From: the human T2T-CHM13v2.0 reference genome, Homo sapiens
DNA: 64,000 bases
Assembly: GCA_009914755.4 (NCBI GenBank)
Contig: CP086569.2
Span: 28,736,001-28,800,000 of the forward strand
Direction of reading: 5' to 3'
Under the pieces are notes generated by a model. That model ran no database searches. It had not been told where the DNA came from and worked only from the letters and a program-made list of their open reading frames with translations. The position numbers and the translations under genes are program-made. Below are positions 1 to 56,188 of this stretch, piece after piece. How positions within the stretch are numbered: the stretch's first letter is position 1; every line of letters begins with the position of its first letter.

Positions 1-150
1 TATTATTCCATTCCATTCAATTCCATTCCAGATGATTCCATTCCATTCTATACCATTGCTCTCTGTTCCCTTCCATTCCATCTGTCTCCATTCCTTTCGT
101 TTCGATTCCTTTCCATTCCATTCCATTACATTTGATCCTATTTTATTAAA
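1..150 (+). repeat. 3' end of a ~3.56 kb HOR unit, truncated by the window edge
   Basis: Position 1 onward (tattattccattccattcaattccattccagatgattcc...) matches position 48957 onward exactly, i.e. the tail of unit 14 that precedes the unit-15 start at 49107. Confidence 0.8.
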
Positions 151-3100
151 TTGCATTCTATTCGAGTGATTTCCATTCGAGTCCTTTCCATTCGATTCCA
201 TTCCATTCTATTCCATTCCTTTGGATTCCATTCCATTCCCTTCCGTTCACATCAATTCCTTGCGATTCCATTACATTCGATTTCTTGCCATTCGATTCCA
301 TTCCTTTTGACTCCATTTCATTCGATTCCATTCCATTCCATTAATTTCCATTCCATTCGAGACCATTCCATTGCAGTCTTTTCCCTTCGAGTCCATTCCG
401 TTCGATTCCCTTCCATTCGATTCCATTCCATTGGAGTCCGTACCAGTCGAGTCCATTCTATTCCAGTCCATTAGTTTCGACTCCATTACATTCGAGTGCA
501 TTCCATTCCGTGGCTGTCCATTCCATTCCGTTTGATGCCATTCCATACGATTCCATTCAATTCGAGACCATTCTATTCCTGTCCATTCCTTGTGCTTCGA
601 TTCCATTTCACTCTAGTCCATTCCATTCCATTCAATTCCATTCGACTCTATTCCGTTCCATTCAATTCCATTCCATTCGATTCCATTTTTTTCGAGAACC
701 TTCCATTACACTCCCTTCCATTCCAGTGCATTCCATTCCAGTCTCTTCAGTTCGATTCCATTCCATTCGTTTCGATTCCTTTCCATTCCAGCCCATTCCA
801 TTCCATTCCATTCCTTTCCTTTCCGTTTCATTAGATTCCATTGCATTCCATTCCATTCAATTCAATTCCGTGCTATTCAATTTGATTCATATCCATTTAA
901 TTCCATTCCATTAGATTCCATTCCGTACGATTCCATTCCTTTGGAATCCATTCCATTGGAGTCCATTCACTTCCAGAACATTCCATTCCAGTCGAATCCA
1001 TTCGAGTACATTCCATTAAAGTTCATTACATTCTAATACATTCCATTCCATTGCATTCCATTCCATTCCATTCGATGCCATTCGATTCCATTCCATGCCA
1101 AATCATTGCATTCCTTTCCATTCCGTTCCTATCAATTCCATTCCATTCGATTTAGTTCGATTCTATTCACTTCCATTCCATTCGATTCCATTCCATTGGA
1201 GTCAATTCCTTTCGACACCCAGCCTTTCCAGTCAATGATTTTGGAGTCCATTTTTTTGCATTCCATTACATTCTATGACATTCGATTCCGTTTCATTGCA
1301 TTCCATTCCATACATTTTTATTCCATTCGAGACCGTAGCATTCCACTTTATTCCAGACCTGTCCATTACACTACATTCCCTTCCATTCCAATGAATTCCA
1401 TTCCATTCCAATCCATTCCTTTCCTTTCGCTTGCATTCCATTCTATTCCCTTCTACTGCATACAATTTCACTCCATTCGTTCCCATTCCATTCAATTCCA
1501 TTCCATTCAATTCCATTCCATTTGTTTCCATTCTCTTCGATTCCATTTCTTTATATTCCATGCCATTCGATTCCATTCTATTGGATTGCATGACTTTCGT
1601 GTTCATTCCATTCCAGACCATTCCATTTGACTCCATTCCTTTCGAGCCCTTTCAATTTGAGTCCATTCCTTTCCAGTCCATTTCACTCCAGTCCATTACT
1701 ATCCATTCCATACCATTCCATCCCATTCCATTAAATTCCATTCCATTCCATTCCATTCCATTCCATTGCATTCCATTCCATTCCATTCCATTGCACTGCA
1801 CTCCATTCCATTACATTCTACTCTATTTGAGTCGATTTTATTGCATTAGATTCTATTCCATTGGATTACTTTCCATTCGATTACATTCCATTAATGTACA
1901 TTCCATTCCAGTCAATTACATTCGAGTTCATTAGATTACATTCCAGTATATTCCATTCTATTTGATCCCATTCCTTTCAATTCCATTTCATTCGACTCCA
2001 TTATATTCGATTCCATTCCACTCGAATCCATTCCATTAGAGGACATTCCATTCCAATGCATTCCATTCCATTCCATAGCATTCCATTGCATTCGATTCCA
2101 TTCCATTTGATGCCATTCCATTTGATGCCATTCCATGACATTCCATTCCATTCGAGTCCATTCCGTTCCAATTCATTCCATTCCGTTTCATGAAATTCGA
2201 GTCCTTTCCAGTACATTTCATTCCAATCCCATCCAATCCAATCTACTCCATTCAATTCCTTTCCATTCCATTTGATTAGATTCCATTGATTTGATTCCAT
2301 TCAGTTTGATTCCATTCCGTGAAATTTCGTTCCATTCTATTCCATTGCATTACTTTCCATTCAATTCCATTCCATTTCATTTCAGTCCATTCGATTCCTT
2401 TCCTTTCGATTCAATTCCATTTGATTCCACTCCATTCTATGCGATTTCATTCCAATCGATTCAATTCCATTCGATGACATTCCTTTCGTTTCCATTCCAT
2501 TCGAGTCCATTCAATTTGAGTATTCGTGTCCATTCAATTCGAGTCCATTCCATTACCGTCTATTCTATTCCCTTCCATTCCTGTTGATTCAATTTCATTC
2601 CCTTCCATTCGATTCCTTTCCATTCAATTCCATTCCTTTCCATTCCATTCCATTCCTTCCCATTCCATGTGATTTCATTCCATTCCAGTCCATTATATTC
2701 GAGTCCACTCCACTCCATTCTATTACATTCAATTCCTTTTGAGTCCGTTCCATAACACTCCATTCATTTCGATTCCATTTCTTGCCAGTTTTCTTCCATT
2801 TTATTCCATTCCGTTCGATTCCCTTCCATTCGATTGCATTCCATTCGAATCCTTTCCATTCCATTTCATTCCATTCCTTTCTATTCCATTCCATTTCATT
2901 CGATTTGATTCCATTCTGTTCTATTCCATTCAATTCTTTTTCATTCCATTCGAATCCTTTCTATTGCAGTCCATTCCATTCGAGTCCATTCCAATCCCTT
3001 CCATTCCATTCCATTACAGTCCATTCCAATAGATTCCATTCCTTTGCCTTCCATTCGAATCCATTCCATTCTAGTCCATTCCATTTGAGTCAATTCCATT

Positions 3101-3713
3101 CCATTCCATTCTATTCCTTTCCAATCCATTCGATTCCATTCGATTCAATTCCATTTGATTCTCTTTCATTCTATTTTATTCCATGCCATTTGATTGCATT
3201 GCATTCCATTCCGTTTGATTCCAGTCCATTCAAGAAAGTTCCATTCCAGTCCATTGCTTTCCAGTCCATTCCATTCCACTCTAGTCTATTCCACTCCATT
3301 CCTTTCCATTCCATTCCATACTATTCTATTCCATTCCTTTGCATTCCGTTTGCAATCTATTCGAGTCCATTGCATCCAGTCCAATCCATTCGATTACATT
3401 CCTTTTGATTCCCTGCCAGTCGATTGCATTGCATACTAGACCATTCCAAACGAGTCCATTCCATTCTATCTCAAAACTTTCCATTCCACTCTGTTCGAGT
3501 CCATTCCATTCCAGTCCATTTAATTCAAGGGCATTCCATTCCATTCCATTCCATTCCATTTCATATTATTCCATTCCATTCAATTCCATTCCAGATGATT
3601 CCATTCCATTCTATACCATTGCTCTCTGTTCCATTCCATTCCATCTGTCTCCATTCCTTTCGTTTCGATTCCTTTCCATTCCATTCCATTACATTTGATC
3701 CTATTTTATTAAA
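151..3713 (+). repeat. HOR unit 1, 3563 bp, subtype 1 (AGACC at the HaeIII position, so no GGCC)
   Basis: Phased on the anchor ttgcattctattcgagtgatttccattcgagtcc at 151. The next anchor is at 3714. ORF-track peptides 151..474 and 1106..1630 recur in later units. Confidence 0.85.
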
Positions 3714-6700
3714 TTGCATTCTATTCGAGTGATTTCCATTCGAGTCCTTTCCATTCGATTCCATTCCATTCTATTCCATTCCTTTGGATTCCATTCCATT
3801 CCGTTCCGTTCACATCAATTCCTTGCGATTCCATTACATTCGATTTCTTGCCATTCGATTCCATTCCTTTTGACTCCATTTCATTCGATTCCATTCCATT
3901 CCATTAATTTCCATTCCATTCGAGACCTTTCCATTGCAGTCTTTTCCCTTCGAGTCCATTCCGTTCGATTCCCTTCCATTCGATTCCATTCCATTGGAGT
4001 CCGTACCAGTCGAGTCCATTCTATTCCAGTCCATTAGTTTCGACTCCATTGCATTCGAGTGCATTCCATTCCGTGGCTGTCCATTCCATTCCGTTTGATG
4101 CCATTCCATACGATTCCATTCAATTCGAGACCATTCTATTCCTGTCCATTCCTTGTGGTTCGATTCCATTTCACTCTAGTCCATTCCATTCCATTCAATT
4201 CCATTCGACTCTATTCCGTTCCATTCAATTCCATTCCATTCGATTCCATTTTTGTCGAGAACCTTCCATTACACTCCCTTCCATTCCAGTGCATTCCATT
4301 CCAGTCTCTTCAGTTCGATTCCATTCCATTCGTTTCGATTCCTTTCCATTCCAGCCCATTCCATTCCATTCCTTTCCTTTCCGTTTCATTAGATTCCATT
4401 GCATTCGATTCCATTCAATTCAATTCCATGCTATTCAATTTGATTCATTTCCATTTAATTCCATTCCATTAGATTCCATTCCGTACGATTCCATTCCTTT
4501 TGAATCCATTCCATTGGAGTCCATTCACTTCCAGAACATTCCATTCCAGTCGAATCCATTCGAGTACATTCCATTAAAGTTCATTAGATTCTAATACGTT
4601 CCATTCCATTGCATTCCATTCCATTCCATTCGATGCCATTCGATTCCATTCCGTGCCAAATCATTGCATTCCTTTCCATTCCGTTCCTATCAATTCCATT
4701 CCATTCGATTTAGTTCGATTCTATTCACTTCCACTCCATTCGATTCCATTCCATTGGAGTCAATTCCTTTCGACACCCAGCCTTTCCAGTCAATGATTTT
4801 GGATTCCATTTTTTTGCATTCCATTACATTCTATGACATTCGATTCCGTTTCATTGCATTCCATTCCATACATTTTTATTCCATTCGAGACCGTAGCATT
4901 CCACTTTATTCCAGGCCTGTCCATTACACTACATTCCCTTCCATTCCAATGAATTCCATTCCATTCCAATCCATTCCTTTCCTTTCGCTTGCATTCCATT
5001 CTATTCCCTTCTACTGCATACAATTTCACTCCATTCGTTCCCATTCCATTCAATTCCATTCCATTCAATTCCATTCCATTTGTTTCCATTCTCTTCGATT
5101 CCATTTCTTTATATTCCATGCCATTCGATTCCATTCTATTGGAATGCGTTACATTCGTGTTCATTCCATTCCAGACCATTCCATTTGACTCCATTCCTTT
5201 CGAGCCCTTTCAATTTGAGTCCATTCCTTTCCAGTCCATTTCACTCCAGTCCATTACTATCCATTGCATACCATTCCATCCCATTCCATTCCATTCCATT
5301 CCATTCCATTCCATTCCATTCCATTGCACTGCACTCCATTCCATTACATTCTACTCTATCTGAGTCGGTTTTATTGCATTAGATTCTATTCCATTGGATT
5401 ACTTTCCATTCGATTACATTCCATTCATGTACATTCCATTCCAGTCAATTACATTCGAGTTCATTACATTACATTCCAGTATATTCCATTCTATTCGATC
5501 CCATTCCTTTCAATTCCATTTCATTCGACTCCATTATATTCGATTCCATTCCACTCAAATCCATTCCATTAGAGGACATTCCATTCCAATGCATTCCATT
5601 CCATTCCATAACATTCCATTGCATTCGATTCCATTCCATTTGATGCCATTCCATGACATTCCATTCCATTCGAGTCCATTCCGTTCCAATTCATTCCATT
5701 CCATTTCATGAAATTCGAGTCCTTTCCAGTACATTTCATTCCAATCCCATCCAATCCAATCTACTCCATTCAATTCCTTTCCATTCCATTTGATTAGATT
5801 CCATTGATTTGATTCCATTCAGTTTGATTCCATTCCGTGAAATTTCGTTCCATTCTATTCCATTGCATTACTTTCCATTCAATTCCATTCCATTTCATTT
5901 CAGTCCATTCGCTTCCTTTCCTTTCGATTCAATTCCATTTGATTCCACTCCATTCTATGCGATTTCATTCCAATCGATTCAATTCCATTCGATGACATTC
6001 CTTTCGTTTCCATTCCATTCGAGTCCATTCAATTTGAGCATTCGTGTCCATTCTATTCGAGTCCATTCCATTTCCGTCTATTCTATTCCCTTCCATTCCT
6101 GTTGATTCAATTTCGTTCCCTTCCATTCGATTCCTTTCCATTCGATTCCATTCCTTTCCATTCCATTCCATTCGTTCCCATTCCATGTGATTTCATTCCA
6201 TTCCAGTCCATTATATTCGAGTCCACTCCACTCCATTCTATTACATTCAATTCCTTTTGAGTCCGTTCCATAACACTCCATTCATTTCGATTCCATTTCT
6301 TGCCAGTTTTCTTCCATTTTATTCCATTCCGTTCGATTCCATTCCATTCGATTGCATTCCATTCGAATCCTTTCCATTCCATTTCATTCCATTCCTTTCT
6401 ATTCCATTCCATTTCATTCGATTTGATTCCATTCTGTTCTATTCCATTCAATTCTTTTTCATTCCATTCGAATCCTTTCTATTGCAGTCCATTCCATTCG
6501 AGTCCATTCCAATCCCTTCCATTCCATTCCATTACAGTCCATTCCAATAGATTCCATTCCTTTGCCTTCCATTCGAATCCATTCCATTCTAGTCCATTCC
6601 ATTTGAGTCAATTCCATTCCATTCCATTCTATTCCTTTCCAATCCATTAGATTCCATTCGATTCAATTCCATTTGATTCTCTTTCATTCTATTTTATTCC

Positions 6701-7232
6701 ATGCCATTTGATTGCATTGCATTCCATTCCGTTTGATTCCAGTCCATTCAAGAAAGTTCCATTCCATTCCATTGCTTTCCAGTCCATTCCATTCCATTCT
6801 AGTCTATTCCACTCCATTCCTTTCCATTCCATTCCATACTATTCCATTCCATTCTTTTGCATTCCGTTTCCAATCTATTCGAGTCCATTGCATTCCAGTC
6901 CAGTCCATTCCATTACATTCCTTTTGATTCCCTGCCAGTCGATTGCATTGCATACTACACCATTCCAAACGAGTCCATTCCATTCTATCTCAACACTTTC
7001 CATTCCACTCTGTTCGAGTCCATTCCATTCCAGTCCATTTAATTCAAGGGCATTCCATTCCATTCCATTCCATTCCATTTCATATTATTCCATTCCATTC
7101 AATTCCATTCCAGATGATTCCATTCCATTCTATACCATTGCTCTCTGTTCCCTTCCATTCCATCTGTCTCCATTCCTTTCGTTTCGATTCCTTTCCATTC
7201 CATTCCATTACATTTGATCCTATTTTATTAAA
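3714..7232 (+). repeat. HOR unit 2, 3519 bp, subtype 2 (GGCC at 4914-4917)
   Basis: Anchor at 3714, next anchor at 7233. The 181-aa artefact ORF 4049..4594 is identical to 45868..46413 and 53005..53550. Confidence 0.85.
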
Positions 7233-9905
7233 TTGCATTCTATTCGAGTGATTTCCATTCGAGTCCTTTCCATTCGATTCCGTTCCATTCTATTCCATTC
7301 CTTTGGATTCCATTCCATTCCGTTCCGTTCACATCAATTCCTTGCGATTCCATTCCATTCGATTTCTTGCCATTCGATTCCATTCCTTTTGACTCCATTT
7401 CATTCGATTCCATTCCATTCCATTAATTTCCATTCCATTCGAGACCATTCCATTGCAGTCTTTTCCCTTCGAGTCCATTCCGTTCGATTCCCTTCCATTC
7501 GATTCCATTCCATTGGAGTCCGTACCAGTCGAGTCCATTCTATTCCAGTCCATTAGTTTCGACTCCATTACATTCGAGTGCATTCCATTCCGTGGCTGTC
7601 CATTCCATTCCGTTTGATGCCATTCCATACGATTCCATTCAATTCGAGACCATTCTATTCCTGTCCATTCCTTGTGCTTCGATTCCAATTCACTCTAGTC
7701 CATTCCATTCCATTCAATTCCATTCGACTCTATTCCGTTCCATTCAATTCCATTCCATTCGATTCCATTTTTTTCGAGAACCTTCCATTACACTCCCTTC
7801 CATTCCAGTGCATTCCATTCCAGTCTCTTCAGTTCGATTCCATTCCATTCGTTTCGATTCCTTTCCATTCCAGCCCATTCCATTCCATTCCATTCCTTTC
7901 CTTTCCGTTTCATTAGATTCCATTGCATTCCATTCCATTCAATTCAATTCCGTGCTATTCAATTTGATTCATATCCATTTAATTCCATTCCATTAGATTC
8001 CATTCCGTACGATTCCATTCCTTTGGAATCCATTCCAATGGAGTCCATTCACTTCCAGAACATTCCATTCCAGTCGAATCCATTCGAGTACATTCCATTA
8101 AAGTTCATTACATTCTAATACATTCCATTCCATTGCATTCCATTCCATTCCATTCGATGCCATTCGATTCCATTCCATGCCAAATCATTGCATTCCTTTC
8201 CATTCCGTTCCTATCAATTCCATTCCATTCGATTTAGTTCGATTCTATTCACTTCCATTCCATTCGATTCCATTCCATTGGAGTCAATTCCTTTCGACAC
8301 CCAGCCTTTCCAGTCAATGATTTTGGATTCCATTTTTTTGCATTCCATTACATTCTATGACATTCGATTCCGTTTCATTGCATTCCATTCCATACATTTT
8401 TATTCCATTCGAGACCGTAGCATTCCACTTTATTCCAGACCTGTCCATTACACTACATTCCCTTCCATTCCAATGAATTCCATTCCATTCCAATCCATTC
8501 CTTTCCTTTCGCTTGCATTCCATTCTATTCCCTTCTACTGCATACAATTTCACTCCATTCGTTCCCATTCCATTCAATTCCATTCCATTCAATTCCATTC
8601 CATTTGTTTCCATTCTCTTCGATTCCATTTCTTTATATTCCATGCCATTCGATTCCATTCTATTGAATTGCATTACTTTCGTGTTCATTCCATTCCAGAC
8701 CATTCCATTTGACTCCATTCTTTCGAGCCCTTTCAATTTGAGTCCATTCCTTTCCAGTCCATTTCACTCCAGTCCATTACTATCCATTCCATACCATTCC
8801 ATCCCATTCCATTAAATTCCATTCCATTCCATTCCATTCCATTGCATTCCATTCCATTCCATTCCATTGCACTGCACTCCATTCCATTACATTCTACTCT
8901 ATTTGAGTCGATTTTATTGCATTAGATTCTATTCCATTGGATTACTTTCCACTCGATTACATTCCATTCATGTACATTCCATTCCAGTCAATTACATTCG
9001 ACTTTGTTACATTGCACTCCAGTATATTCCATTCTATTCGATCCCATTCCTTTCCATTCCATTTCATTCCATTCCTTCTTATTCCATTCCGTTTCATTCG
9101 ATTTGATTCCATTCTGTTCTATTCCATTCAATTCTTTTTCATTCCATTCGAATCTTTCTATTGCAGTACATTCAATTCGAGTCCATTCCAATCCCTTCCA
9201 TTCCATTCCATTACAGTCCATTCCAATAGATTCTATTCTTTTGCCTTCCATTCGAATCCATTCCATTCTAGTCCATTCCATTTGAGTCAATTCCATTCCA
9301 TTCCATTCTATTCCTTTCCAATCCATTCGATTCCATTCGATTCAATTCCATTTGATTCTCTTTCATTCTATTTTATTCCATGCCATTTGATTGCATTGCA
9401 TTCCATTCCGTTTGATTCCAGTCCATTCAAGAAAGTTCCATTCCAGTCCATTGCTTTCGTGTCCATTCCATTCCACTCTAGTCTATTCCACTGCATTCCT
9501 TTCCATTCCATTCCATACTATTCCATTCCATTCCTTTGCATTCCGTTTGCAATCTATTCGAGTCCATTGCATTCCAGTCCAATCCATTCGATTACATTCC
9601 TTTTGATTCCCTGCCAGTCGATGCATTGCATATTAGACCATTCCAAAGGAGTCCATTCCATTCTATTTCAACACTTTCCATTCCAGTCTGTTCGAGTCCA
9701 TTCCATTCCAGTCCATTTAATTCAAGGGCATTCCATTCCATTCCATTCCATATCATATTATTCCATTCCATTCAATTCCATTCCAGATGATTCCATTCCA
9801 TTCTATACCATTGCTCTCTGTTCCATTCCATTCCATCTGTCTCCATTCCTTTCGTTTCGATTCCTTTCCATTCCATTCCATTACATTTCATCCTATTTTA
9901 TTAAA
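7233..9905 (+). repeat. HOR unit 3, only 2673 bp; chimeric unit with a recombination junction at ~9050-9075
   Basis: Anchor at 7233, next anchor at 9906. Up to ~9050 the sequence is identical to unit 17 (offset 48,956). After a stretch of cctttc[a/c]attccatttcattc microhomology, it continues with sequence that in unit 17 lies ~890 bp further on, and it now matches the unit 4/5 subfamily. Confidence 0.75.
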
Positions 9906-12900
9906 TTGCATTCTATTCGAGTGATTTCCATTCGAGTCCTTTCCATTCGATTCAATTCCATTCTATACCATTCCTTTGGATTCCATTCCATTCCGTTCCG
10001 TTCACATCCATTCCTTGCGATTCCATTACATTCGATTTCTTGCCATTCGATTCCATTCCTTTTGACTCCATTTCATTCGATTCCATTCCATTCCATTAAT
10101 TTCCATTCCATTCGAAACCTTTCCATTGCAGTCTTTTCACTTCGAGTCCATTCCGTTCGATTCCATTTCATTCGATTCCATTCCTTTGGAGTGCGTACCA
10201 GTCGAGTCCATTCTATTCCACTCCATTAGTTTCGACTCCATTGCATTCGAGTGCATTCAATTCCTTGGCTGTCCATTCCATTCCGTTTGATGCCATTCCA
10301 TAGGATTCCATTCAATTCGAGACCATTCTATTCCTGTCCATTCCTTGTGATTCGATTCCATTTCACTCTAGTCCATTCTATTCCATTCAATTCCATTCGA
10401 CTCTATTCCGTTCCATTCAATTAAATTCCATTCGATTCCATTTGTTTCGAGAACCTTCCATTACACTCCCTTCCATTCCAGTGCATTCCATTCCAGTCTC
10501 TTCAGTTCGATTCCATTCCATTCGTTTCGATTCCTTTCCATTCCAGCCCATTCCATTCCATTCCATTCCTTTCCTTTCCGTTTCATTAGATTCCATTGCG
10601 TTCGATTCCATTCAATTCAATTCCGTGCTATTCAGTTTGATTCCTTTCCATTTAATTCCATTCCATTAGATAACATTCCGTTCGATTCCATTCCTTTCGA
10701 ATCCATTCCATTGGAGTCCATTCACTTCCAGAACATTCCATTCCAGTCGAATCCATTCGAGTACATTCCATTAAAGTTCATTACATTCTAATACATTCCA
10801 TTCCATTGCATTCCATTCCATTCCATTCGATGCCATTCGATTCCATTCCATGCCAAATCATTCCATTCCTTTCCATTCCGTTCCGGTCAATTGCATTCCA
10901 TTCAATTTAGTTCGATTCTATTCACTTCCATTCCATTCGATTCCATTCCATTGGAGTCAATTCCTTTCGACACACAGTCTTTCCAGTCAATGACTTTGGA
11001 GTCCATTTTTTTGCATTCCATTACATTCTATGACATTCGATTCCGTTTCATTGCATTCCATTCCATACATTTTTATTCCATTCGAGACCGTAGCATTCCA
11101 GTTTATTCCAGGCCTGTCCATTACACTACATTCCCTTCCATTCCAATGAATTCCATTCCATTCTAATCCATTCCTTTCCTTTCGCTTGCATTCCATTCTA
11201 TTCTCTTCTATTCCATACAATTTCACTCCATTCGTTCCCATTCCATTCAATTCCATTCCATTCAATTCCATTCCATTTCTTTCCATTCTCTTCGATTCCA
11301 TTTCTTTATATTCCATGCCATTCGATTCCATTCCATTGGATTGCATTACATTCGAGTTCATTCCATTCCAGACCATTCCATTTGACTCCATTCCTTTCGA
11401 GCCCTTTCAATTTGAGTCCATTGCTTTCCAGTCCATTTCACTCCAGTCCATTCCTATCCATTCCATACCATTCCATCCCATTCCATTCCATTCCATTCCA
11501 CTCCATTGCATTCCATTCCATTCCATTCCATTGCACTGCATTCCATTCCATTACATTCTATTCCATTTGAGTCGATTTTATTGCATTAGATTCTATTCCA
11601 TTGGATTACTTTCCATTCGATTACATTCCATTCATGTACATTCCATTCCAGTCAATTACATTCGACTTCATTACATTACATGCTAGTATATTCCATTCTA
11701 TTCGATCCCATTCCTTTCAATTCCATTTCATTCGACTCCATTATATTCAATTCCATTCCACTCGAATCCATTCCATTAGAGGACATTTCATTCCAATACA
11801 TTCCATTCCATTCCATAACATTCCATTGCATTCGATTCCATTCCATTTGATGCCATTCCATGACTTTCCATTCCATTCGAGTCCATTGCATTCCAATTCA
11901 TTCCATTCCGTTTCATAAAGTTCGAATCCTTTCCATTCCATTGCATTCCAATCCGTTCCAATCCAATCTATTCCATTCAATTCCTTTCCATTCCATTTGA
12001 TTATATTCCATTGATTTGATTCCATTCAGTTTGATTCCATTCCGTGAAATTTCGTTCCATTCTATTCCATTGCATTACTTTCCATTCAATTCCATTCCAT
12101 TTCATTTCAGTCCATTCGCTTCCTTTCCTTTCGATTCAATTCTATTTGATTCCACTCCATTCTATGACATTTCATTCCAATCGATACAATTCCATTCGAT
12201 GATATTCCTTTCGTTTCCATTCTATTCGAGTCCATTCAATTTGAGCATTCGTGTCCATTCTATTCGAGTCCATTCCATTACAGTCTATTCTATTCCCTTC
12301 CATTCCTGTTGATTCAATTTCATTCCCTTCCATTTGATTCCTTTGCATTCGATTCCATTCCGTTCCATTCCATTCCATTCGTTCCCATTCCATGTGATTC
12401 CATTCCATTCCAGTCCATTATATTCGAGTCCACTCCACTCCATTCTATTACATTCCATTCCTTTTGAGTCCGTTCCATAACACTCCATTCATTTCGATTC
12501 CATTTATTGCCAGTTTGCTTCCATCTTATTCCATTCCGTTCGTTTCCATTCCATTCGATTGCATTCCATTCGATTGCATTCCATTCGAATCCTTTCCATT
12601 CCATTTCATTCCATTCCTTTCTATTCCATTCCATTTCATTCGATTTGATTCCATTCTGTTCTATTCCATTCAATTATTTTTCATTCCATTCGAATCCTTT
12701 CTATTGCAGTCCATTCCATTCGAGTCCATTCCAATCCCTTCCATTCCATTCCATTACAGTCCATTCCAATAGATTCTATTCCTTTGCCTTCCATTCGACT
12801 CCCTTCTATTCTAGTCCATTCCATTTGTGTCAATTCCATTCCATTCCATTCTATTCCTTTCCAATCCATTCGATTCCATTCGACTCAATTCCATTCGATT

Positions 12901-13449
12901 CTCTTTCATTCTATTTTATTCCATGCCATTTGATTGCATTGCATTCCATTCCGTTTGATTCCAGTCCATTCAAGAAAGTTCCATTCCAGTCCATTGCTTT
13001 CGAGTCCATTCCATTCCACTCTAGTCTATTCCACTCCATTTCTTTCCATTCCATTCCATACTATTCCATTCCATTCCTTTGCATTCCGTTTCTAATCTAT
13101 TCGAGTCGATTGCATTCCAGTCCAATCCATTCGATTACATTCCTTTTGATTCCCTGCCAGTCGATTGCATTGCATATTAGACCATTCCAAAGGAGTCCAT
13201 TCCATTCTATTTCAACACTTTCCATTCCACTCTGTTCGAGTCCATTCCATTCCAGTCCATTTAATTCAAGGGCATTCCATTCCATTCCATTCCATATCAT
13301 ATTATTCCATTCCATTCAATTCCATTCCAGATGATTCCATTCCATTCTATACCATTGCTCTCTGTTCCATTCCATTCCATCTGTCTCCATTCCTTTCGTT
13401 TCGATTCCTTTCCATTCCATTCCATTACATTTGATCCTATTTTACTAAA
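9906..13449 (+). repeat. HOR unit 4, 3544 bp, divergent subfamily (GGCC at 11111-11114)
   Basis: Anchor at 9906. It shares the subfamily variants RNLSIAVF and NSILYHSFG (ORF-track translations) with unit 5. Unit 4 and unit 5 both measure 3544 bp. Confidence 0.8.
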
Positions 13450-16400
13450 TTGCATTCTATTCGAGTGATTTCCATTCGAGTCCTTTCCATTCGATTCCAT
13501 TCCATTCTATACCATTCCTTTGGATTCCATTCCATTCCGTTCCGTTCACATCCATTCCTTGCGAATCCATTACATTCGATTTCTTGCCATTCGATTCCAT
13601 TCCTTTTGACTCCATTTCATTCGATTCCATTCCATTCCATTAATTTCCATTCCATTCGAAACCTTTCCATTGCAGTCTTTTCACTCCGAGTCCATTCCGT
13701 TCGATTCCATTCCATTCGATTCCATTCCATTGGAGTGCGTACCAGTCGAGTCCATTCTATTCCACTCCATTAGTTTCGACTCCATTGCATTCGAGTGCAT
13801 TCCATTCCTTGGCTGTCCATTCCATTCCGTTTGATGCCATTCCATACGATTCCATTCAATTCGAGACCATTCTATTCCTGTCCATTCCTTGTGATTCGAT
13901 TCCATTTCACTCTAATCCATTCCATTCCATTCAATTCCATTCGACTCTATTCCGTTCCATTCAATTAAATTCCATTCGATTCCATTTGTTTCGAGAACCT
14001 TCCATTACACTCCCTTCCATTCCAGTGCATTCCATTCCAGTCTCTTCAGTTCGATTCCATTCCATTCGTTTCGATTCCATTCCATTCCAGCCCATTCCAT
14101 TCCATTCCATTCCTTTCCTTTCCGTTTCATTAGATTCCACTGCGTTCGATTCCATTCAATTCAATTCTGTGCTATTCAGTTTGATTCCTTTCCATTTAAT
14201 TCCATTCCATTAGATAACATTCCGTTCGATTCCATTCCTTTCGAATCCATTCCATTGGAGTCCATTCACTTCCAGAACATTCCATTCCAGTCGAATCCAT
14301 TCGAGTACATTCCATTAAAGTTCATTACATTCTAATACATTCCATTCCATTGCATTCCATTCCATTCCATTCGATGCCATTCGATTCCATTCCATGCCAA
14401 ATCATTGCATTCCTTTCCATTCCGTTCCTGTCAATTGCATTCCATTCGATTTAGTTCGATTCTATTCACTTCCATTCCATTCGATTCCATTCCATTGGAG
14501 TCAATTCCTTTCGACACACAGTCTTTCCAGTCAATGACTTTGGAGCCCATTTTTTTGCATTCCATTACATTCTATGACATTCGATTCCGTTTCATTGCAT
14601 TCCATTCCATAAATTTTTATTCCATTCGAGACCGTAGCATTCCAGTTTATTCCAGCCCTGTCCATTACAATACATTCCCTTCCATTCCAATGAATTCCAT
14701 TCCATTCTAATCCATTCCTTTCCTTTCGCTTGCATTCCATTCTATTCTCTTCTATTCCATACAATTTCACTCCATTCGTTCCCATTCCATTCAAATCCAT
14801 TCCATTCAATTCCATTCCATTTCTTTCCATTCTCTTCGATTCCATTTCTTTATATTCCATGCCATTCGATTCCATTCCATTGGATTGCATTACATTCGAG
14901 TTCATTCCATTCCAGACCATTCCATTTGACTCCATTCCTTTCGAGCCCTTTCAATTTGAGTCCATTCCTTTCCAGTCCATTTCACTCCAGTCCATTCCTA
15001 TCCATTCCATACCATTCCATCCCATTCCATTCCATTCCATTCCACTCCATTGCATTCCATTCCATTCCATTCCATTGCACTGCATTCCATTCCATTACAT
15101 TCTATTCCATTTGAGTCGATTTTATTGCATTAGATTCTATTCCATTGGATTACTTTCCATTCGATTACATTCCATTCATGTACATTCCATTCCAGTCAAT
15201 TACATACGACTTCATTACATTACATGCTAGTATATTCCATTCTATTCGATCCCATTCCTTTCAATTCCATTTCATTCGACTCCATTATATTCAATTCCAT
15301 TCCACTCGAATCCATTCCATTAGAGGACATTTCATTCCAATACATTCCATTCCATTCCATAACATTCCATTGCATTCGATTCCATTCCATTTGATGCCAT
15401 TCCATGACATTCCATTCCATTCGAGTCCATTCCATTCCAATTCATTCCATTCCGTTTCATGAAATTCGAGTCCTTTCCATTCCATTGCATTCCAATCCCT
15501 TCCAATCCAATCTATTCCATTCAATTCCTTTCCATTCCATTTGATTATATTCCATTGATTTGATTCCATTCTGTTTGATTCCATTCCGAGAAATTTCGTT
15601 CCATTCTATTCCATTGCATTACTTTCCATTCAATTCCATTCCATTCCATTTCAGTCCATTCGCTTCCTTTCCTTTCGATTCAATTCCATTTGATTCCACT
15701 CCATTCTATACCATTTAATTCCAATCGATTCAATTCCATTCGATGGCATTCCTTTCGTTTCCATTCTATTCGAGTCCATTCAATTTGAGCCTTCGTGTCC
15801 ATTCTATTCGAGTCCATTCCATTACAGTCTATTCTATTCCCTTCCGTTCCCGTTGATTCAATTTCATTCCCTTCCATTCGATTCCTTTCCTTTCGATTCC
15901 ATTCCTTTCCATTCCATTACATTCGTTCCCATTCCACGTGATTCCATTCCATTCCAGTCCATTATATTCGAGTCCACTCCACTCCATTCTGTTACTTTCA
16001 ATTCCTTTTGAGTCCGTTCCATAACACTCCATTCATTTCGATTCCATTTCCTGCCAGTTTTCTTCCATTTTATTCCATTCCGTTCGATTCCATTCCATTC
16101 GATTGCATTCCATTCGATTACATTCCATTCGAATCCTTTCCATTCCATTTCATTCCATTCCTTTCTATTCCATTCCATTTCATTCGATTTGATTCCATTC
16201 TGTTCTATTCCATTCAATTCTTTTTCATTCCATTCGAATCCTTTCTATTGCAGTCCATTCCATTCGAGTCCATTCCAATCCCTTCCTTTCCATTCCATTA
16301 CAGTCCATTCCAATAGATTCTATTCCTTTGCCTTCCATTCGACTCCATTCCATTCTAGTCCATTCCATTTGAGTCAATTCCATTCCATTCCATTCTATTC

Positions 16401-16993
16401 CTTTCGAATCCATTCGATTCCATTCGATTCAATTCCATTTGATTCTCTTTCATTCTATTTTATTCCATGCCATTTGATTGCATTGCATTCCATTCCGTTT
16501 GATTCCAGTCCATTCAAGAAAGTTCCATTCCAGTCCATTGCTTTCGAGACCATTCCATTCCACTCTAGTCTATTCCACTCCATTCCTTTCCATTCCATTC
16601 CATACTTTTCCATTCCATTCCTTTGCATTCCGTTTCCAATCTATTCGAGTCCATTGCATTCCAGTCCAATCCATTCGATTACATTCCTTTTGATTCCCTG
16701 CCAGTCGATTGCATTGCATACTAGACCATTCCAAAGGAGTCCATTCCATTCTATTTCAACACTTTCCATTCCACTCTGTTCGAGTCCATTCCATTCCAGT
16801 CCATTTAATTTAAGGGCATTCCATTCCATTCCATTCCATTTCATATTATTCCATTCCATTCAATTCCATTCCAGATGATTCCATTCCATTCTATGCCATT
16901 GCTCTCTGTTCCATTCCATTACATCTGTCTCCATTCCTTTCGTTTCGATTCCTTTCCATTCCATTCCATTACATTTGATCCTATTTTATTAAA
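13450..16993 (+). repeat. HOR unit 5, 3544 bp, divergent subfamily (AGCCC at the HaeIII position)
   Basis: Anchor at 13450. ORFs 10987..11391 and 14531..14935 are near-identical at an offset of 3544. Confidence 0.8.
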
Positions 16994-37800: not shown

Positions 37801-38389
37801 TCCAATCCATTCGATTCAATTCCATTTGATTCTCTTTCATTCTATTTTATTCCATGCCATTGATTGCATTGCATTCCATTCCGTTTGATTCCAGTCCATT
37901 CAAGAAAGTTCCATTCCAGTCCATTGCTTTCCAGTCCATTCCATTCCACTCTAGTCTATTCCACTCCATTCCTTTCCATTCCATTCCATACTATTCCATT
38001 CCATTCCTTTGCATTCCGTTTCCAATCTATTCGAGTCCATTGCATTCCAGTCCAATCCATTCCATTACATTCCTTTTGATTCCCTGCCAGTCGATTGCAT
38101 TGCATACTACACCATTCCAAAGGAGTCCATTCCATTCTATCTCAACACTTTCCATTCCACTCTGTTCGAGTCCATTCCATTCCAGTCCATTTAATTCAAG
38201 GGCATTCCATTCCATTCCATTCCATTCAATTCCATTTCATATTATTCCATTCCATTCAATTCCATTCCAGATGATTCCATTCCATTCTATACCATTGCTC
38301 TCTGTTCCCTTCCATTCCATCTGTCTCCATTCCTTTCGTTTCGATTCCTTTCCATTCCATTCCATTACATTTGATCCTATTTTATTAAA
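34807..38389 (+). repeat. HOR unit 11, 3583 bp (GGCC at 36012-36015)
   Basis: Anchor at 34807, next anchor at 38390. Confidence 0.85.
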
Positions 38390-48500: not shown

Positions 48501-49106
48501 ATCCATTAGATTCCATTCGATTCAATTCCATTTGATTCTCTTTCATTCTATTTTATTCCATGCCATTTGATTGCATTGCATTCCATTCCGTTTGATTCCA
48601 GTCCATTCAAGAAAGTTCCATTCCAGTCCATTGCTTTCCAGTCCATTCCATTCCATTCTAGTCTATTCCACTCCATTCCTTTCCATTCCATTCCATACTA
48701 TTCCATTCCATTCTTTTGCATTCCGTTTCCAATCTATTCGAGTCCATTGCATTCCAGTCCAGTCCATTCCATTACATTCCTTTTGATTCCCTGCCAGTCG
48801 ATTGCATTGCATACTACACCATTCCAAAGGAGTCCATTCCATTCTATCTCAACACTTTCCATTCCACTCTGTTCGAGTCCATTCCATTCCAGTCCATTTA
48901 ATTCAAGGGCATTCCATTCCATTCCATTCCATTCCATTCCATTCCATTCCATTTCATATTATTCCATTCCATTCAATTCCATTCCAGATGATTCCATTCC
49001 ATTCTATACCATTGCTCTCTGTTCCCTTCCATTCCATCTGTCTCCATTCCTTTCGTTTCGATTCCTTTCCATTCCATTCCATTACATTTGATCCTATTTT
49101 ATTAAA
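45533..49106 (+). repeat. HOR unit 14, 3574 bp, subtype 2 (GGCC at 46733-46736)
   Basis: Anchor at 45533. It is near-identical to unit 16 at an offset of 7137, and in part to unit 12 at an offset of 7138. Confidence 0.85.
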
Positions 49107-52100
49107 TTGCATTCTATTCGAGTGATTTCCATTCGAGTCCTTTCCATTCGATTCCATTCCATTCTATTCCATTCCTTTGGATTCCATTCCATTCCCTTCC
49201 GTTCACATCAATTCCTTGCGATTCCATTACATTCGATTTCTTGCCATTCGATTCCATTCCTTTTGACTCCATTTCATTCGATTCCATTCCATTCCATTAA
49301 TTTCCATTCCATTCGAGACCATTCCATTGCAGTCTTTTCCCTTCGAGTCCATTCCGTTCGATTCCCTTCCATTCGATTCCATTCCATTGGAGTCCGTACC
49401 AGTCGAGTCCATTCTATTCCAGTCCATTAGTTTCGACTCCATTACATTCGAGTGCATTCCATTCCGTGGCTGTCCATTCCATTCCGTTTGATGCCATTCC
49501 ATACGATTCCATTCAATTCGAGACCATTCTATTCCTGTCCATTCCTTGTGCTTCGATTCCATTTCACTCTAGTCCATTCCATTCCATTCAATTCCATTCG
49601 ACTCTATTCCGTTCCATTCAATTCCATTCCATTCGATTCCATTTTTTTCGAGAACCTTCCATTACACTCCCTTCCATTCCAGTGCATTCCATTCCAGTCT
49701 CTTCAGTTCGATTCCATTCCATTCGTTTCGATTCCTTTCCATTCCAGCCCATTCCATTCCATTCCATTCCTTTCCTTTCCGTTTCATTAGATTCCATTGC
49801 ATTCCATTCCATTCAATTCAATTCCGTGCTATTCAATTTGATTCATATCCATTTAATTCCATTCCATTAGATTCCATTCCGTACGATTCCATTCCTTTGG
49901 AATCCATTCCATTGGAGTCCATTCACTTCCAGAACATTCCATTCCAGTCGAATCCATTCGAGTACATTCCATTAAAGTTCATTACATTCTAATACATTCC
50001 ATTCCATTGCATTCCATTCCATTCCATTCGATGCCATTCGATTCCATTCCATGCCAAATCATTGCATTCCTTTCCATTCCGTTCCTATCAATTCCATTCC
50101 ATTCGATTTAGTTCGATTCTATTCACTTCCATTCCATTCGATTCCATTCCATTGGAGTCAATTCCTTTCGACACCCAGCCTTTCCAGTCAATGATTTTGG
50201 AGTCCATTTTTTTGCATTCCATTACATTCTATGACATTCGATTCCGTTTCATTGCATTCCATTCCATACATTTTTATTCCATTCGAGACCGTAGCATTCC
50301 ACTTTATTCCAGACCTGTCCATTACACTACATTCCCTTCCATTCCAATGAATTCCATTCCATTCCAATCCATTCCTTTCCTTTCGCTTGCATTCCATTCT
50401 ATTCCCTTCTACTGCATACAATTTCACTCCATTCGTTCCCATTCCATTCAATTCCATTCCATTCAATTCCATTCCATTTGTTTCCATTCTCTTCGATTCC
50501 ATTTCTTTATATTCCATGCCATTCGATTCCATTCTATTGGATTGCATGACTTTCGTGTTCATTCCATTCCAGACCATTCCATTTGACTCCATTCCTTTCG
50601 AGCCCTTTCAATTTGAGTCCATTCCTTTCCAGTCCATTTCACTCCAGTCCATTACTATCCATTCCATACCATTCCATCCCATTCCATTAAATTCCATTCC
50701 ATTCCATTCCATTCCATTCCATTGCATTCCATTCCATTCCATTCCATTGCACTGCACTCCATTCCATTACATTCTACTCTATTTGAGTCGATTTTATTGC
50801 ATTAGATTCTATTCCATTGGATTACTTTCCATTCGATTACATTCCATTAATGTACATTCCATTCCAGTCAATTACATTCGAGTTCATTAGATTACATTCC
50901 AGTATATTCCATTCTATTTGATCCCATTCCTTTCAATTCCATTTCATTCGACTCCATTATATTCGATTCCATTCCACTCGAATCCATTCCATTAGAGGAC
51001 ATTCCATTCCAATGCATTCCATTCCATTCCATAGCATTCCATTGCATTCGATTCCATTCCATTTGATGCCATTCCATTTGATGCCATTCCATGACATTCC
51101 ATTCCATTCGAGTCCATTCCGTTCCAATTCATTCCATTCCGTTTCATGAAATTCGAGTCCTTTCCAGTACATTTCATTCCAATCCCATCCAATCCAATCT
51201 ACTCCATTCAATTCCTTTCCATTCCATTTGATTAGATTCCATTGATTTGATTCCATTCAGTTTGATTCCATTCCGTGAAATTTCGTTCCATTCTATTCCA
51301 TTGCATTACTTTCCATTCAATTCCATTCCATTTCATTTCAGTCCATTCGATTCCTTTCCTTTCGATTCAATTCCATTTGATTCCACTCCATTCTATGCGA
51401 TTTCATTCCAATCGATTCAATTCCATTCGATGACATTCCTTTCGTTTCCATTCCATTCGAGTCCATTCAATTTGAGTATTCGTGTCCATTCAATTCGAGT
51501 CCATTCCATTACCGTCTATTCTATTCCCTTCCATTCCTGTTGATTCAATTTCATTCCCTTCCATTCGATTCCTTTCCATTCAATTCCATTCCTTTCCATT
51601 CCATTCCATTCCTTCCCATTCCATGTGATTTCATTCCATTCCAGTCCATTATATTCGAGTCCACTCCACTCCATTCTATTACATTCAATTCCTTTTGAGT
51701 CCGTTCCATAACACTCCATTCATTTCGATTCCATTTCTTGCCAGTTTTCTTCCATTTTATTCCATTCCGTTCGATTCCCTTCCATTCGATTGCATTCCAT
51801 TCGAATCCTTTCCATTCCATTTCATTCCATTCCTTTCTATTCCATTCCATTTCATTCGATTTGATTCCATTCTGTTCTATTCCATTCAATTCTTTTTCAT
51901 TCCATTCGAATCCTTTCTATTGCAGTCCATTCCATTCGAGTCCATTCCAATCCCTTCCATTCCATTCCATTACAGTCCATTCCAATAGATTCCATTCCTT
52001 TGCCTTCCATTCGAATCCATTCCATTCTAGTCCATTCCATTTGAGTCAATTCCATTCCATTCCATTCTATTCCTTTCCAATCCATTCGATTCCATTCGAT

Positions 52101-52669
52101 TCAATTCCATTTGATTCTCTTTCATTCTATTTTATTCCATGCCATTTGATTGCATTGCATTCCATTCCGTTTGATTCCAGTCCATTCAAGAAAGTTCCAT
52201 TCCAGTCCATTGCTTTCCAGTCCATTCCATTCCACTCTAGTCTATTCCACTCCATTCCTTTCCATTCCATTCCATACTATTCTATTCCATTCCTTTGCAT
52301 TCCGTTTGCAATCTATTCGAGTCCATTGCATCCAGTCCAATCCATTCGATTACATTCCTTTTGATTCCCTGCCAGTCGATTGCATTGCATACTAGACCAT
52401 TCCAAACGAGTCCATTCCATTCTATCTCAAAACTTTCCATTCCACTCTGTTCGAGTCCATTCCATTCCAGTCCATTTAATTCAAGGGCATTCCATTCCAT
52501 TCCATTCCATTCCATTTCATATTATTCCATTCCATTCAATTCCATTCCAGATGATTCCATTCCATTCTATACCATTGCTCTCTGTTCCATTCCATTCCAT
52601 CTGTCTCCATTCCTTTCGTTTCGATTCCTTTCCATTCCATTCCATTACATTTGATCCTATTTTATTAAA
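49107..52669 (+). repeat. HOR unit 15, 3563 bp, subtype 1; copy of unit 1 at an offset of 48,956
   Basis: Anchor at 49107. Every ORF-track artefact in unit 1 recurs with identical length and translation at +48,956. Confidence 0.85.
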
Positions 52670-55600: not shown

Positions 55601-56188
55601 CATTAGATTCCATTCGATTCAATTCCATTTGATTCTCTTTCATTCTATTTTATTCCATGCCATTTGATTGCATTGCATTCCATTCCGTTTGATTCCAGTC
55701 CATTCAAGAAAGTTCCATTCCATTCCATTGCTTTCCAGTCCATTCCATTCCATTCTAGTCTATTCCACTCCATTCCTTTCCATTCCATTCCATACTATTC
55801 CATTCCATTCTTTTGCATTCCGTTTCCAATCTATTCGAGTCCATTGCATTCCAGTCCAGTCCATTCCATTACATTCCTTTTGATTCCCTGCCAGTCGATT
55901 GCATTGCATACTACACCATTCCAAACGAGTCCATTCCATTCTATCTCAACACTTTCCATTCCACTCTGTTCGAGTCCATTCCATTCCAGTCCATTTAATT
56001 CAAGGGCATTCCATTCCATTCCATTCCATTCCATTTCATATTATTCCATTCCATTCAATTCCATTCCAGATGATTCCATTCCATTCTATACCATTGCTCT
56101 CTGTTCCCTTCCATTCCATCTGTCTCCATTCCTTTCGTTTCGATTCCTTTCCATTCCATTCCATTACATTTGATCCTATTTTATTAAA
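52670..56188 (+). repeat. HOR unit 16, 3519 bp, subtype 2 (GGCC at 53870-53873); copy of unit 2
   Basis: Anchor at 52670. It has the same length (3519 bp) as unit 2, and 53005..53550 = 4049..4594. Confidence 0.85.

What the first reader, a model, noticed from the sequence alone, without database searches (positions are those of the whole stretch)
8937..10229. Unit 3 is ~885 bp short: a recombination junction at ~9050-9075 joins two HOR subfamilies
Seen in sequence: unit 3 (7233-9905) is 2673 bp against ~3560 bp for other units. Up to ~9050 it is identical to unit 17. At the microhomology cctttc(a/c)attccatttcattc it jumps to sequence that in unit 17 lies ~890 bp further on. Past the junction it no longer matches unit 17 but carries unit 4/5 subfamily variants, for example ...DALHIRPFQRSPFHSISTLSIP... 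in 9536..9790.

The junction therefore marks both a deletion and the boundary of the 48,956-bp identical block. This points to an unequal crossover between misaligned units of two subfamilies. The 430-aa ORF 8937..10229 in the track is a by-product of this junction.
Basis: seen in the sequence. Interest (0 to 1): 0.5.

Follow-up and report, generated by a model that had tools for sequence, protein, structure and literature searches.

The report
Short hybrid unit in Y-chromosome satellite
One 2.7-kb copy in a human Y-chromosome DYZ1 satellite array lacks 878 bp and is spliced from two repeat lineages next to a recent ~49-kb duplication; this is real but is ordinary satellite-array turnover, and the long ORF across it is not a gene.

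Summary
The window is human DYZ1 (HSat3A6), with a 3.56-kb higher-order unit. Unit 3 (7233-9905) is 2,673 bp long. It lacks the 878 bp that unit 17 has at 58004-58881. The clean junction is at 9047|9048, inside TCCTTTC (7 exact bases, 21 of 22 extended), which is the best motif pair within the unit. U3 is a hybrid: 7233-8951 is identical to U17, and 9048-9905 groups with U4/U5 (97.5% bootstrap).

- Identity with U17 stops at 8951, not at about 9050. Six mismatches lie at 8952-9017, and that 96-bp patch looks like diverged-lineage DNA.
- 48,956 bp is the spacing of the repeat. Only 8,951 identical bp are visible in the window.

The lineage switch and the deletion junction are therefore 96 bp apart. 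My preferred reading (about 0.5) is an older microhomology deletion in a diverged unit, followed by a recent in-register 14-unit exchange that ended just upstream of it. The single-event reading (about 0.25) needs roughly 5% local hypermutation.

The 430-aa ORF is spurious. Most of its extra length comes from a private TGA>TCA change at 9889. Interest is low because this kind of event is already known.

The parts
1..8951 (+). Copy 1 of the exact duplicate block (end of U0, U1, U2, left part of U3). It is truncated by the window start.
   Evidence: Zero mismatches against 48957-57907 at lag 48,956.
48957..57907 (+). Copy 2 of the exact duplicate block (end of U14, U15, U16, left part of U17).
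   Evidence: The next most similar repeat in the window is only 99.66% identical (lag 7,138).
7233..9905 (+). U3, the short (2,673-bp) hybrid DYZ1 unit.
   Evidence: Unit segmentation and alignments.
7233..8951 (+). U3 left part, identical to U17. It carries all U17-private alleles and none of about 45 U4/U5-diagnostic alleles.
   Evidence: NJ bootstrap support for (U3,U17) is 100%.
8952..9047 (+). 96-bp diverged patch between the end of the identical block and the deletion junction. It has 5 private variants plus 9002-C, which is shared with U4/U5 and with two public DYZ1 copies.
9048..9069 (+). Junction motif TCCTTTCCATTCCATTTCATTC. The exchange lies within the exact 7-bp TCCTTTC (9048-9054), and no bases are inserted.
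   Evidence: The junction 41-mer is unique in the window and absent from public contigs.
9048..9905 (+). U3 right part, of the U4/U5-related lineage, with 12 private variants. Six of them lie within 127 bp of the junction.
58004..58881 (+). The 878-bp segment of U17 (also present in all other full units) that is missing from U3. The left motif is at 58004-58025 and the right motif at 58882-58903.
9906..16993 (+). U4 and U5, a diverged DYZ1 sub-lineage. They are 96.3-96.8% identical to the main type, 97.9% to each other, and at most 96.3% to any public copy.
8937..10229 (+). Spurious 430-aa ORF. It is a translation of stop-poor pentamer repeats, and 67% of its residues are S, F, I, P or H.
9888..9890 (+). 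TCA codon where the other units listed have the TGA stop that ends their 300-305-aa ORFs. A private G>C change at 9889 lets the ORF read into U4.

Best explanation
I favour a two-step history inside a human DYZ1 (HSat3A6) array.

Step 1 (older). A unit of a diverged lineage related to U4/U5 lost 878 bp between two near-identical 22-bp motifs. The mechanism was microhomology-mediated: replication slippage, template switching, or MMEJ/SSA-type repair. This produced a 2.7-kb unit. DNA near the resulting heterology kept, or acquired, its own variants.

Step 2 (very recent). An in-register but 14-unit-staggered exchange occurred between sister chromatids, by unequal sister-chromatid exchange or break-induced copying. 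It paired U17 with this short unit and resolved about 100-150 bp upstream of the 878-bp heterology. That created a duplication with a 48,956-bp period (14 units, one of them short). It also replaced the short unit's left part with U17 sequence.

Shown: the anatomy, the two separate discontinuities, the lineage assignments and the microhomology.

Inferred: the order of events, the tandem nature of the duplication (its upstream copy lies outside the window), and the molecular pathway.
For: - There are 0 mismatches in 8,951 bp and then 6 in the next 96 bp before the junction.
- The patch is 7.3% diverged from the main consensus, against 4.2-5.2% for U4/U5 and 1.0% for U17 in the same columns.
- 9002-C in the patch is a segregating lineage allele. 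It is present in U4, U5 and 2 of 45 independent public DYZ1 copies, on the same 9018/9020 background as U3.
- Trees place U3-left with U17 (100%) and U3-right with U4/U5 (97.5%).
- The flanks at the 878-bp offset are only 45-48% identical, so the deletion cannot be a homologous misaligned crossover.
- Every other multi-unit duplication visible in the window is in register, at lags 3,573, 7,138 and 41,818.
- Another microhomology-type length variant exists nearby (U18/U19, 2,757 bp), so short units do pre-exist in this array.
- The literature describes Yq12 evolving by iterative tandem duplication and unequal exchange, with sister-chromatid exchanges observed.
Against: - The recent exchange must have resolved within about 100-150 bp of an older junction. 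That has roughly a 5% chance if the position were random. It is only partly excused by the idea that heterology blocks branch migration, or that gap repair places crossovers next to the gap.
- U3's private variants are concentrated on both sides of the junction: 11 of 17 lie within 8952-9174 (P = 3e-4). The excess is specific to U3 compared with U4/U5 in the same columns (Fisher P = 0.0016). A single mutagenic junction-forming event would also produce this pattern.
- The ancestral short unit predicted about 49 kb upstream lies outside the window and could not be seen.
- No second copy of the junction was found anywhere.
Confidence: 0.5

Rival explanations
1. Single event. A replication-based template switch (FoSTeS/MMBIR-like), or an out-of-register exchange, went from U17 position 58003 back to a unit about 49 kb behind, using the TCCTTTC microhomology. 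This created the 48,956-bp tandem duplication and the apparent 878-bp deletion together. Error-prone synthesis, or a short conversion tract, then peppered about 130 bp on each side of the junction with substitutions.
For: - The junction has microhomology (7 exact bases, 21/22) and no inserted bases.
- The lag equals 14 units minus the deletion.
- Private variants cluster on both sides of the junction, and the excess is specific to U3.
- The identity boundary coincides with the outer edge of the left cluster, so no positional coincidence is needed.
- Clustered de novo SNVs attributed to gene conversion are reported in Yq12 pedigrees.
Against: - It needs about 5% substitutions (11-12 changes in 223 bp). 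To my knowledge that is far denser than reported for error-prone replicative repair.
- One of the six left-flank changes (9002 G>C) reproduces an allele already segregating in the U4/U5 lineage and in public copies.
- None of the changes matches the paralogous 878-bp-offset sequence, so patchy repair of a misaligned heteroduplex is excluded.
- No donor for a conversion tract exists in the window or in 125 kb of public DYZ1 sequence.
- All other duplications in the window are in register.
Confidence: 0.25
2. Duplication first, deletion later. An in-register 14-unit exchange produced a full-length hybrid U3, with the lineage switch at about 8951. An independent microhomology deletion of 878 bp then struck that same unit 96 bp downstream.
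For: The two discontinuities are separate. Microhomology deletions evidently occur in this array, as U18/U19 show.
Against: - It requires a second rare event within 96 bp of the first, in the short time during which 8,951 bp accumulated no difference.
- It does not explain the junction-centred excess of private variants.
Confidence: 0.08
3. Assembly artefact. The short unit, or the exact 9-kb identity at 49-kb spacing, results from a collapse or mis-join in a satellite assembly.
For: Perfectly identical blocks of 9 kb or more in satellites are where assemblers err. No read data are available here.
Against: - A collapse or mis-join recombines existing sequence. U3 carries 17 variants and a junction found nowhere else in the window, so distinct reads must underlie it.
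- The junction is clean and lies at the best microhomology in the unit.
Confidence: 0.05

Closest known systems
DYZ1 / HSat3A6 satellite of human Yq12 (3.56-kb HaeIII repeat)
   Same: - CATTC/ATTCC pentamer base and a 3,519-3,583-bp higher-order unit.
- About 38-39% GC.
- HaeIII site spacing of 3,554-3,573 bp.
- The example HSat3A6-specific 24-mer occurs 32 times in the window.
- U17 is 99.2% identical to human-contaminant DYZ1 contigs (papers).
   Different: Nothing at the family level. U3 is a length variant, U4/U5 are a diverged sub-lineage, and U18/U19 are a 2,757-bp variant unit.
Multi-unit tandem duplication by unequal sister-chromatid exchange in satellite arrays, as described for Yq12 in the T2T-Y paper
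   Same: - Direct-orientation, 100% identical copies at a spacing of about 14 units.
- A hybrid unit at the boundary.
- Older in-register duplications elsewhere in the same array.
   Different: - The period is not a whole number of full units, because one included unit is 878 bp short.
- Only 8,951 bp of the upstream copy is visible, so tandem adjacency is not shown.
Microhomology-mediated deletion or template switching (replication slippage, MMEJ, FoSTeS/MMBIR)
   Same: - A clean junction inside 7 bp of exact microhomology (21/22 extended).
- No extended flanking homology.
- A local cluster of substitutions near the junction.
   Different: - There are no templated insertions or multiple switches.
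- The substitution density of about 5% is far above what I recall being reported for MMBIR junctions.
- The pathway cannot be identified from sequence alone.
The '2.7 kbp repeat' of the Yq11/Yq12 transition (Hallast et al., 43 Y assemblies)
   Same: It is a DYZ1-derived unit of about 2.7 kb. U3 is 2,673 bp and U18/U19 are 2,757 bp.
   Different: - That repeat is reported as 23% DYZ18-derived and forms its own array.
- U3 is a solitary, wholly DYZ1 unit with a different deletion.

Membership tests
DYZ1 / HSat3A6 (human Y HSat3) | Derived from tandem CATTC/ATTCC pentamers | tested here: met
   TRF finds a 15-bp ATTCC x3 consensus across 5-63908. The strand composition is strongly skewed.
DYZ1 / HSat3A6 (human Y HSat3) | Nested higher-order unit of about 3.56-3.6 kb | tested here: met
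   16 units of 3,519-3,583 bp that are 96-100% identical in register. The literature gives about 3.6 kb, with 3,569-bp HaeIII fragments.
DYZ1 / HSat3A6 (human Y HSat3) | Subfamily-specific 24-mers (Altemose 2014, Table 1) | tested here: met
   The HSat3A6 24-mer TCGTTTCGATTCCTTTCCATTCCA occurs 32 times. The example 24-mers of 12 other HSat2/3 subfamilies occur 0 times.
DYZ1 / HSat3A6 (human Y HSat3) | One HaeIII (GGCC) site per unit | tested here: inconclusive
   GGCC occurs at the same unit position in 10 of 17 units, spaced 3,554-3,573 bp apart. It is lost in the others.
DYZ1 / HSat3A6 (human Y HSat3) | Located in Yq12 of the human Y chromosome | not testable with these tools
   No human genome is searchable here. 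There is only indirect support: 99.2% identity to DYZ1 contaminant contigs, some from human gut metagenomes.
Tandem duplication by unequal (staggered) exchange | Two direct copies of near-100% identity with a hybrid unit at the joint | tested here: met
   1-8951 equals 48957-57907 exactly. U3 is a hybrid by tree and by site typing.
Tandem duplication by unequal (staggered) exchange | Copy length equals the period (copies are adjacent) | not testable with these tools
   Copy 1 would start about 40 kb upstream of the window.
Homologous misaligned (out-of-register) crossover as the origin of the 878-bp deletion | Extended homology between the two misaligned sites | tested here: not met
   Identity at the 878-bp offset is 45-48% over the 108 bp to the left. 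Around the motif it is 64% over +/-100 bp and 58% over +/-200 bp, which is no better than many other offsets.
Microhomology-mediated deletion / template switch | Short exact homology at a clean junction | tested here: met
   TCCTTTC (7 bp) within a 21/22 match, which is the best partner site in the unit. No bases are inserted.
Error-prone replicative repair (MMBIR-type) | De novo point mutations flanking the junction | tested here: inconclusive
   A cluster of 11 private variants lies within 8952-9174. They cannot be told apart from inherited lineage variants, and one neighbouring change (9002-C) is a known lineage allele.
Protein-coding gene (ORF 8937-10229) | Similarity to a protein family, non-repetitive composition, and conservation of the frame in other units | tested here: not met
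   - There is no Pfam hit above threshold (14.9 bits against a cut-off of 105).
- 67% of residues are S, F, I, P or H.
- The other units listed end the frame at a TGA that U3 lost at 9889.

The most novel reading that the evidence does not exclude
One replication-based template switch created both the 49-kb tandem duplication and the 878-bp out-of-register joint. It left a footprint of about 5% substitutions within about 130 bp on both sides. That would be a natural example of junction-associated hypermutation in human constitutive heterochromatin, at a density well above that reported for MMBIR-type CNV junctions.
Probability: 0.2. Interest if true: 0.45.

Novelty: new member of a known kind. 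Interest (0 to 1): 0.15.

Why it matters
The finding is a clean, base-resolved example of how DYZ1 arrays turn over. It shows a microhomology deletion that makes a unit-length variant, and a very recent multi-unit duplication whose exchange point lies next to that heterology. Such junctions are unique markers in otherwise intractable satellite DNA. They could be used to anchor reads, validate Yq12 assemblies and date array rearrangements on the Y haplogroup tree. The finding does not change the accepted picture, in which Yq12 evolves by unequal exchange, iterative duplication and gene conversion. It also shows that long ORFs in this satellite are artefacts of stop-poor pentamer repeats.

Tried and rejected
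- **Second copy of the junction or a donor for U3's variants in the window.** BLAST of 8940-9180 and of sub-segments found none. U18/U19 do not carry the variants either.
- **Junction 41-mer in metagenome contigs.** 0 hits.
- **Degenerate patch pattern in metagenome and GTDB genome contigs.** This returned 43 DNA stretches with human DYZ1 sequence. None had the U3-type patch, the junction, or any of 17 U3-private 21-mers. The sample is only about 125 kb, roughly 35 units, so absence is weak evidence.
- **Patchy mismatch repair of a misaligned heteroduplex as the source of the private alleles.** Rejected, because none of the alleles tested at the 878-bp offset (the six left-flank sites and three right-flank private sites) equals the base there.
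- **Extended intra-unit paralogy at the 878-bp offset.** Rejected.
- **U3 as a copy of the 2,757-bp variant unit at the 3' end.** Rejected. U18/U19 lack U12 positions 808-1929 and carry a 380-bp duplication, while U3 lacks about 1,830-2,710.
- **ORF as a gene.** Rejected.
- **A failed script.** A first fuzzy-regex unit finder timed out and was replaced by BLAST.
Full report
**What the window is**

The whole 64-kb window is one satellite. TRF reports an ATTCC-type array from 5 to 63908. GC content is 38-39% and the strand skew is strong. In-register BLAST and MAFFT define 17 consecutive units, U1-U17. Their starts are 151, 3714, 7233, 9906, 13450, 16994, 20548, 24116, 27689, 31253, 34807, 38390, 41969, 45533, 49107, 52670 and 56189, and U17 ends at 59746. 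Unit lengths are 3,519-3,583 bp, except for U3.

GGCC (HaeIII) sites recur 3,554-3,573 bp apart in 10 of the units. The example HSat3A6-specific 24-mer from Altemose et al. 2014 (PMC4022460, Table 1) occurs 32 times. The 24-mers listed for 12 other HSat2/3 subfamilies never occur. U17 is 99.2% identical to DYZ1-like contigs that sit as human contamination in metagenome assemblies.

This matches the published description of DYZ1/HSat3A6 of Yq12. That description gives nested repeats of about 3.6 kb derived from CATTC, 38% GC, and 3,569-bp HaeIII fragments (10.1101/2022.12.01.518724 and 10.1101/2022.12.01.518658). I could not test chromosomal location.

**Checking the observation**

U3 (7233-9905) is 2,673 bp long. 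Both the multiple alignment and the global pairwise alignments give the same picture:
- U3 7233-9047 aligns to U17 56189-58003.
- U17 58004-58881 (878 bp) has no counterpart in U3.
- U3 9048-9905 aligns to U17 58882-59746.

The remaining 7 bp of the 885-bp length deficit are small indels.

In full units, the left breakpoint reads TCCTTTCAATTCCATTTCATTCGAC. The right breakpoint reads TCCTTTCCATTCCATTTCATTCCAT. U3 has the right-hand C at 9055, so the switch lies inside TCCTTTC (9048-9054). No bases are inserted. The right site is the single best match (21/22) to the left site anywhere in the unit. Homology does not extend beyond the motif. The 108 bp to the left are 45-48% identical at the 878-bp offset, and windows of +/-100-200 bp are no better than many other offsets. 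The junction therefore rests on microhomology, and long misaligned homology played no part.

**The duplicate block**

At a lag of 48,956 bp, window 1-8951 equals 48957-57907 without a single mismatch. The next best repeat in the window is 99.66% identical. It is a two-unit duplication at lag 7,138.

48,956 bp is the spacing, equal to 14 units of which one is short. It is not the visible length of the block. The block runs off the 5' end of the window, so I cannot show that it is a full tandem duplication.

Zero differences in 8,951 bp give a 95% upper bound of 3.4e-4 differences per bp. Two assumed mutation rates give rough ages:
- At about 3e-8 per bp per generation (my own knowledge of the euchromatic Y rate), the block is younger than about 5,600 generations.
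- At a rate I derived crudely from the Yq12 de novo counts in the 2026 preprint, it is younger than about 700 generations.

**The correction that matters**

Identity with U17 does not run up to the junction. The first mismatches are at 8952, 9002, 9005, 9006, 9014 and 9017. Six mismatches fall in the last 96 bp after none in 8,951 bp, which has P of about 1e-12 if placement were uniform.

In these 96 columns U3 is 7.3% from the main-type consensus. U4 and U5 are 4.2% and 5.2% from it, and U17 is 1.0%. One of the six changes, 9002-C, is the U4/U5 allele. It also occurs in 2 of 45 independent public DYZ1 copies (L001, L012), on the same main-type 9018/9020 background as U3. Those two copies carry many other U4/5-type alleles. 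The other five changes are private to U3.

So there are two discontinuities. The first is a lineage switch and block end at 8951|8952. Using U4/U5 as a proxy for the lost left part, the switch lies somewhere in 8901-8952. The second is the deletion junction at 9047|9048.

**Hybrid nature**

- Left of 8951, U3 carries every U17-private allele and none of about 45 U4/U5-diagnostic alleles.
- Right of the junction, it shares 4 of 5 U4/U5-diagnostic alleles, including the 5-bp deletion at 9728.
- It also shares two alleles found only in U4 (9633, 9752).
- It has 12 private variants in this part.
- NJ bootstrap support is 100% for (U3,U17) on the left and 97.5% for (U3,U4,U5) on the right.

'Joins two HOR subfamilies' is therefore correct. 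U4/U5 themselves form a rare lineage. They are 96.3-96.8% identical to the other units and at most 96.3% identical to any of the public copies.

**The cluster of private variants**

Of U3's 17 private variants between 8952 and 9905, 11 lie within 8952-9174, on both sides of the junction (binomial P = 3e-4). The excess is specific to U3. In the same columns U4 and U5 together have 2 private sites near the junction against 16 far from it, while U3 has 11 against 6 (Fisher P = 0.0016).

These variants have no donor in the window, in U18/U19, or in about 125 kb of public DYZ1 contigs. None of those tested equals the base at the 878-bp-offset paralogous position. That rules out patchy repair of a misaligned heteroduplex.

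**Interpretation**

The data fit best with two events.

First came an older microhomology-mediated 878-bp deletion in a unit of the diverged, U4/U5-related lineage. DNA next to the resulting heterology then either escaped later homogenisation or was mutated during the repair.

Second came a very recent in-register exchange staggered by 14 units. It paired U17 with that short unit and resolved just upstream of the heterology. This gave the 48,956-bp period and overwrote the short unit's left part with U17 sequence.

Several points favour this reading:
- The patch between the two discontinuities has diverged-lineage character.
- 9002-C is a lineage allele.
- There is no homology to support a misaligned crossover.
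- All other duplications in the window are in register.
- Another length-variant unit exists nearby.

Its weakness is that the recent exchange must end within about 100-150 bp of the old junction. That is about 5% by chance. It becomes more likely if heterology blocks branch migration, or if gap repair places crossovers next to the gap, but that is inference.

The main rival is a single template-switch or out-of-register event with error-prone synthesis. It explains the coincidence and the junction-centred cluster naturally. However, it needs about 5% substitutions over 223 bp and a chance hit on a known lineage allele.

I put the two-step model at about 0.5, the single event at about 0.25, deletion after duplication at about 0.08, and an assembly artefact at about 0.05. 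The artefact is unlikely because a collapse cannot invent 17 unique variants and a unique clean junction. The sequence about 49 kb upstream of U3, which lies outside the window, would decide among these.

**The ORF**

ORF 8937-10229 (430 aa, TTG start) is real as a string but is not a gene.
- The + strand is stop-poor, with 16 stop trinucleotides per 1,000 positions against 40 on the - strand.
- 67% of the residues are S, F, I, P or H.
- Pfam gives nothing above threshold.
- Seven other units carry 275-305-aa ORFs in the equivalent region. The six checked end at a TGA 15 bp before the unit end.
- U3 has TCA at that position, because of the private G>C at 9889. The frame therefore runs 113 codons into U4.
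- The junction contributes only 37 in-frame upstream codons.

The statement that the ORF is 'a by-product of this junction' is thus only partly right.

**Comparison with what is known, and novelty**

The T2T-Y paper describes recent iterative tandem duplications in Yq12. It calls them consistent with unequal exchange and reports sister-chromatid exchanges there. Small indels in DYZ1 units are documented (PMC3925983). The 2026 population preprint reports frequent de novo SNVs and conversion-like clusters in Yq12.

This locus is a specific, well-resolved instance of those processes. It is a new member of a known kind and of low general interest. Its practical value is as a unique marker for assembly validation and for dating rearrangements.

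Noticed in passing
window 59747-64000: Regular DYZ1 units stop at 59746. U18 (59747-62503, 2,757 bp) and the start of U19 (62504-64000, 99.2% identical to U18) are a different variant unit. It consists of U12 positions 1-807, then 1930-3249, then 2829-3579. That is a deletion of about 1.1 kb plus a 380-bp internal tandem duplication (61393-61785 and 61773-62165, 99% identical). It might be related to the '2.7 kbp repeat' of the Yq11/Yq12 transition described by Hallast et al., or it may be a local variant patch.
   Followed up: partly
window 9906-16993: U4 and U5 form a diverged sub-lineage. They are 96.3-96.8% identical to the other units and 97.9% to each other. Their best match to any of about 35 public DYZ1 units is 96.3%, whereas main-type units reach 99.2%. 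Some of their diagnostic alleles recur in U18 and in the public contigs L001 and L012, so they may be older alleles.
   Followed up: partly
window 39037-45193 vs 46175-52331; 1-3375 vs 41819-45193: Older in-register duplications are visible. One is a two-unit (7,138-bp lag) duplication at 99.66% identity. U1/U2 also resemble U13/U14 at 99.7%. Together with the 100% identical block at 48,956 bp, these show layered multi-unit amplification within the array.
   Followed up: partly
L038-L043 (genome contigs): Six contigs in bacterial genome assemblies and MAGs carry human DYZ1 sequence, presumably as male human DNA contamination. The records are Actinomadura cremea JCM 3308, Senimuribacter sp. DSM 106208, Actinacidiphila cocklensis DSM 42063, Streptomyces sp. 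DH5, Streptomyces sp. NPDC050549 and a Polyangiaceae MAG.
   Followed up: no
window, GGCC sites at 4914, 11111, 18199, 21753, 25321, 28894, 32458, 36012, 46733, 53870: The HaeIII site that classically defines the 3.56-kb DYZ1 fragment is present in only 10 of the 17 units. A HaeIII digest of this stretch would therefore also give fragments of about 6.2, 7.1 and 10.7 kb.
   Followed up: no
window 3714-7232 (U2) and 52670-56188 (U16); 34807-38389 (U11): Full units differ in length by multiples of about 5 bp, from 3,519 to 3,583 bp, because of small pentamer-scale indels. An example is a 15-bp insertion shared by U4 and U5 near alignment columns 2711-2725.
   Followed up: no
L006 (BNJT01001888.1, 55.5 kb) and L014 (BNJU01004413.1, 54.6 kb): Two metagenome contigs of about 55 kb appear to be long DYZ1 arrays. 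Their units are about 97% identical to the window's, with many small gaps, which may reflect a noisy assembly. Only 11.8 kb and 5.9 kb of them were fetched.
   Followed up: no
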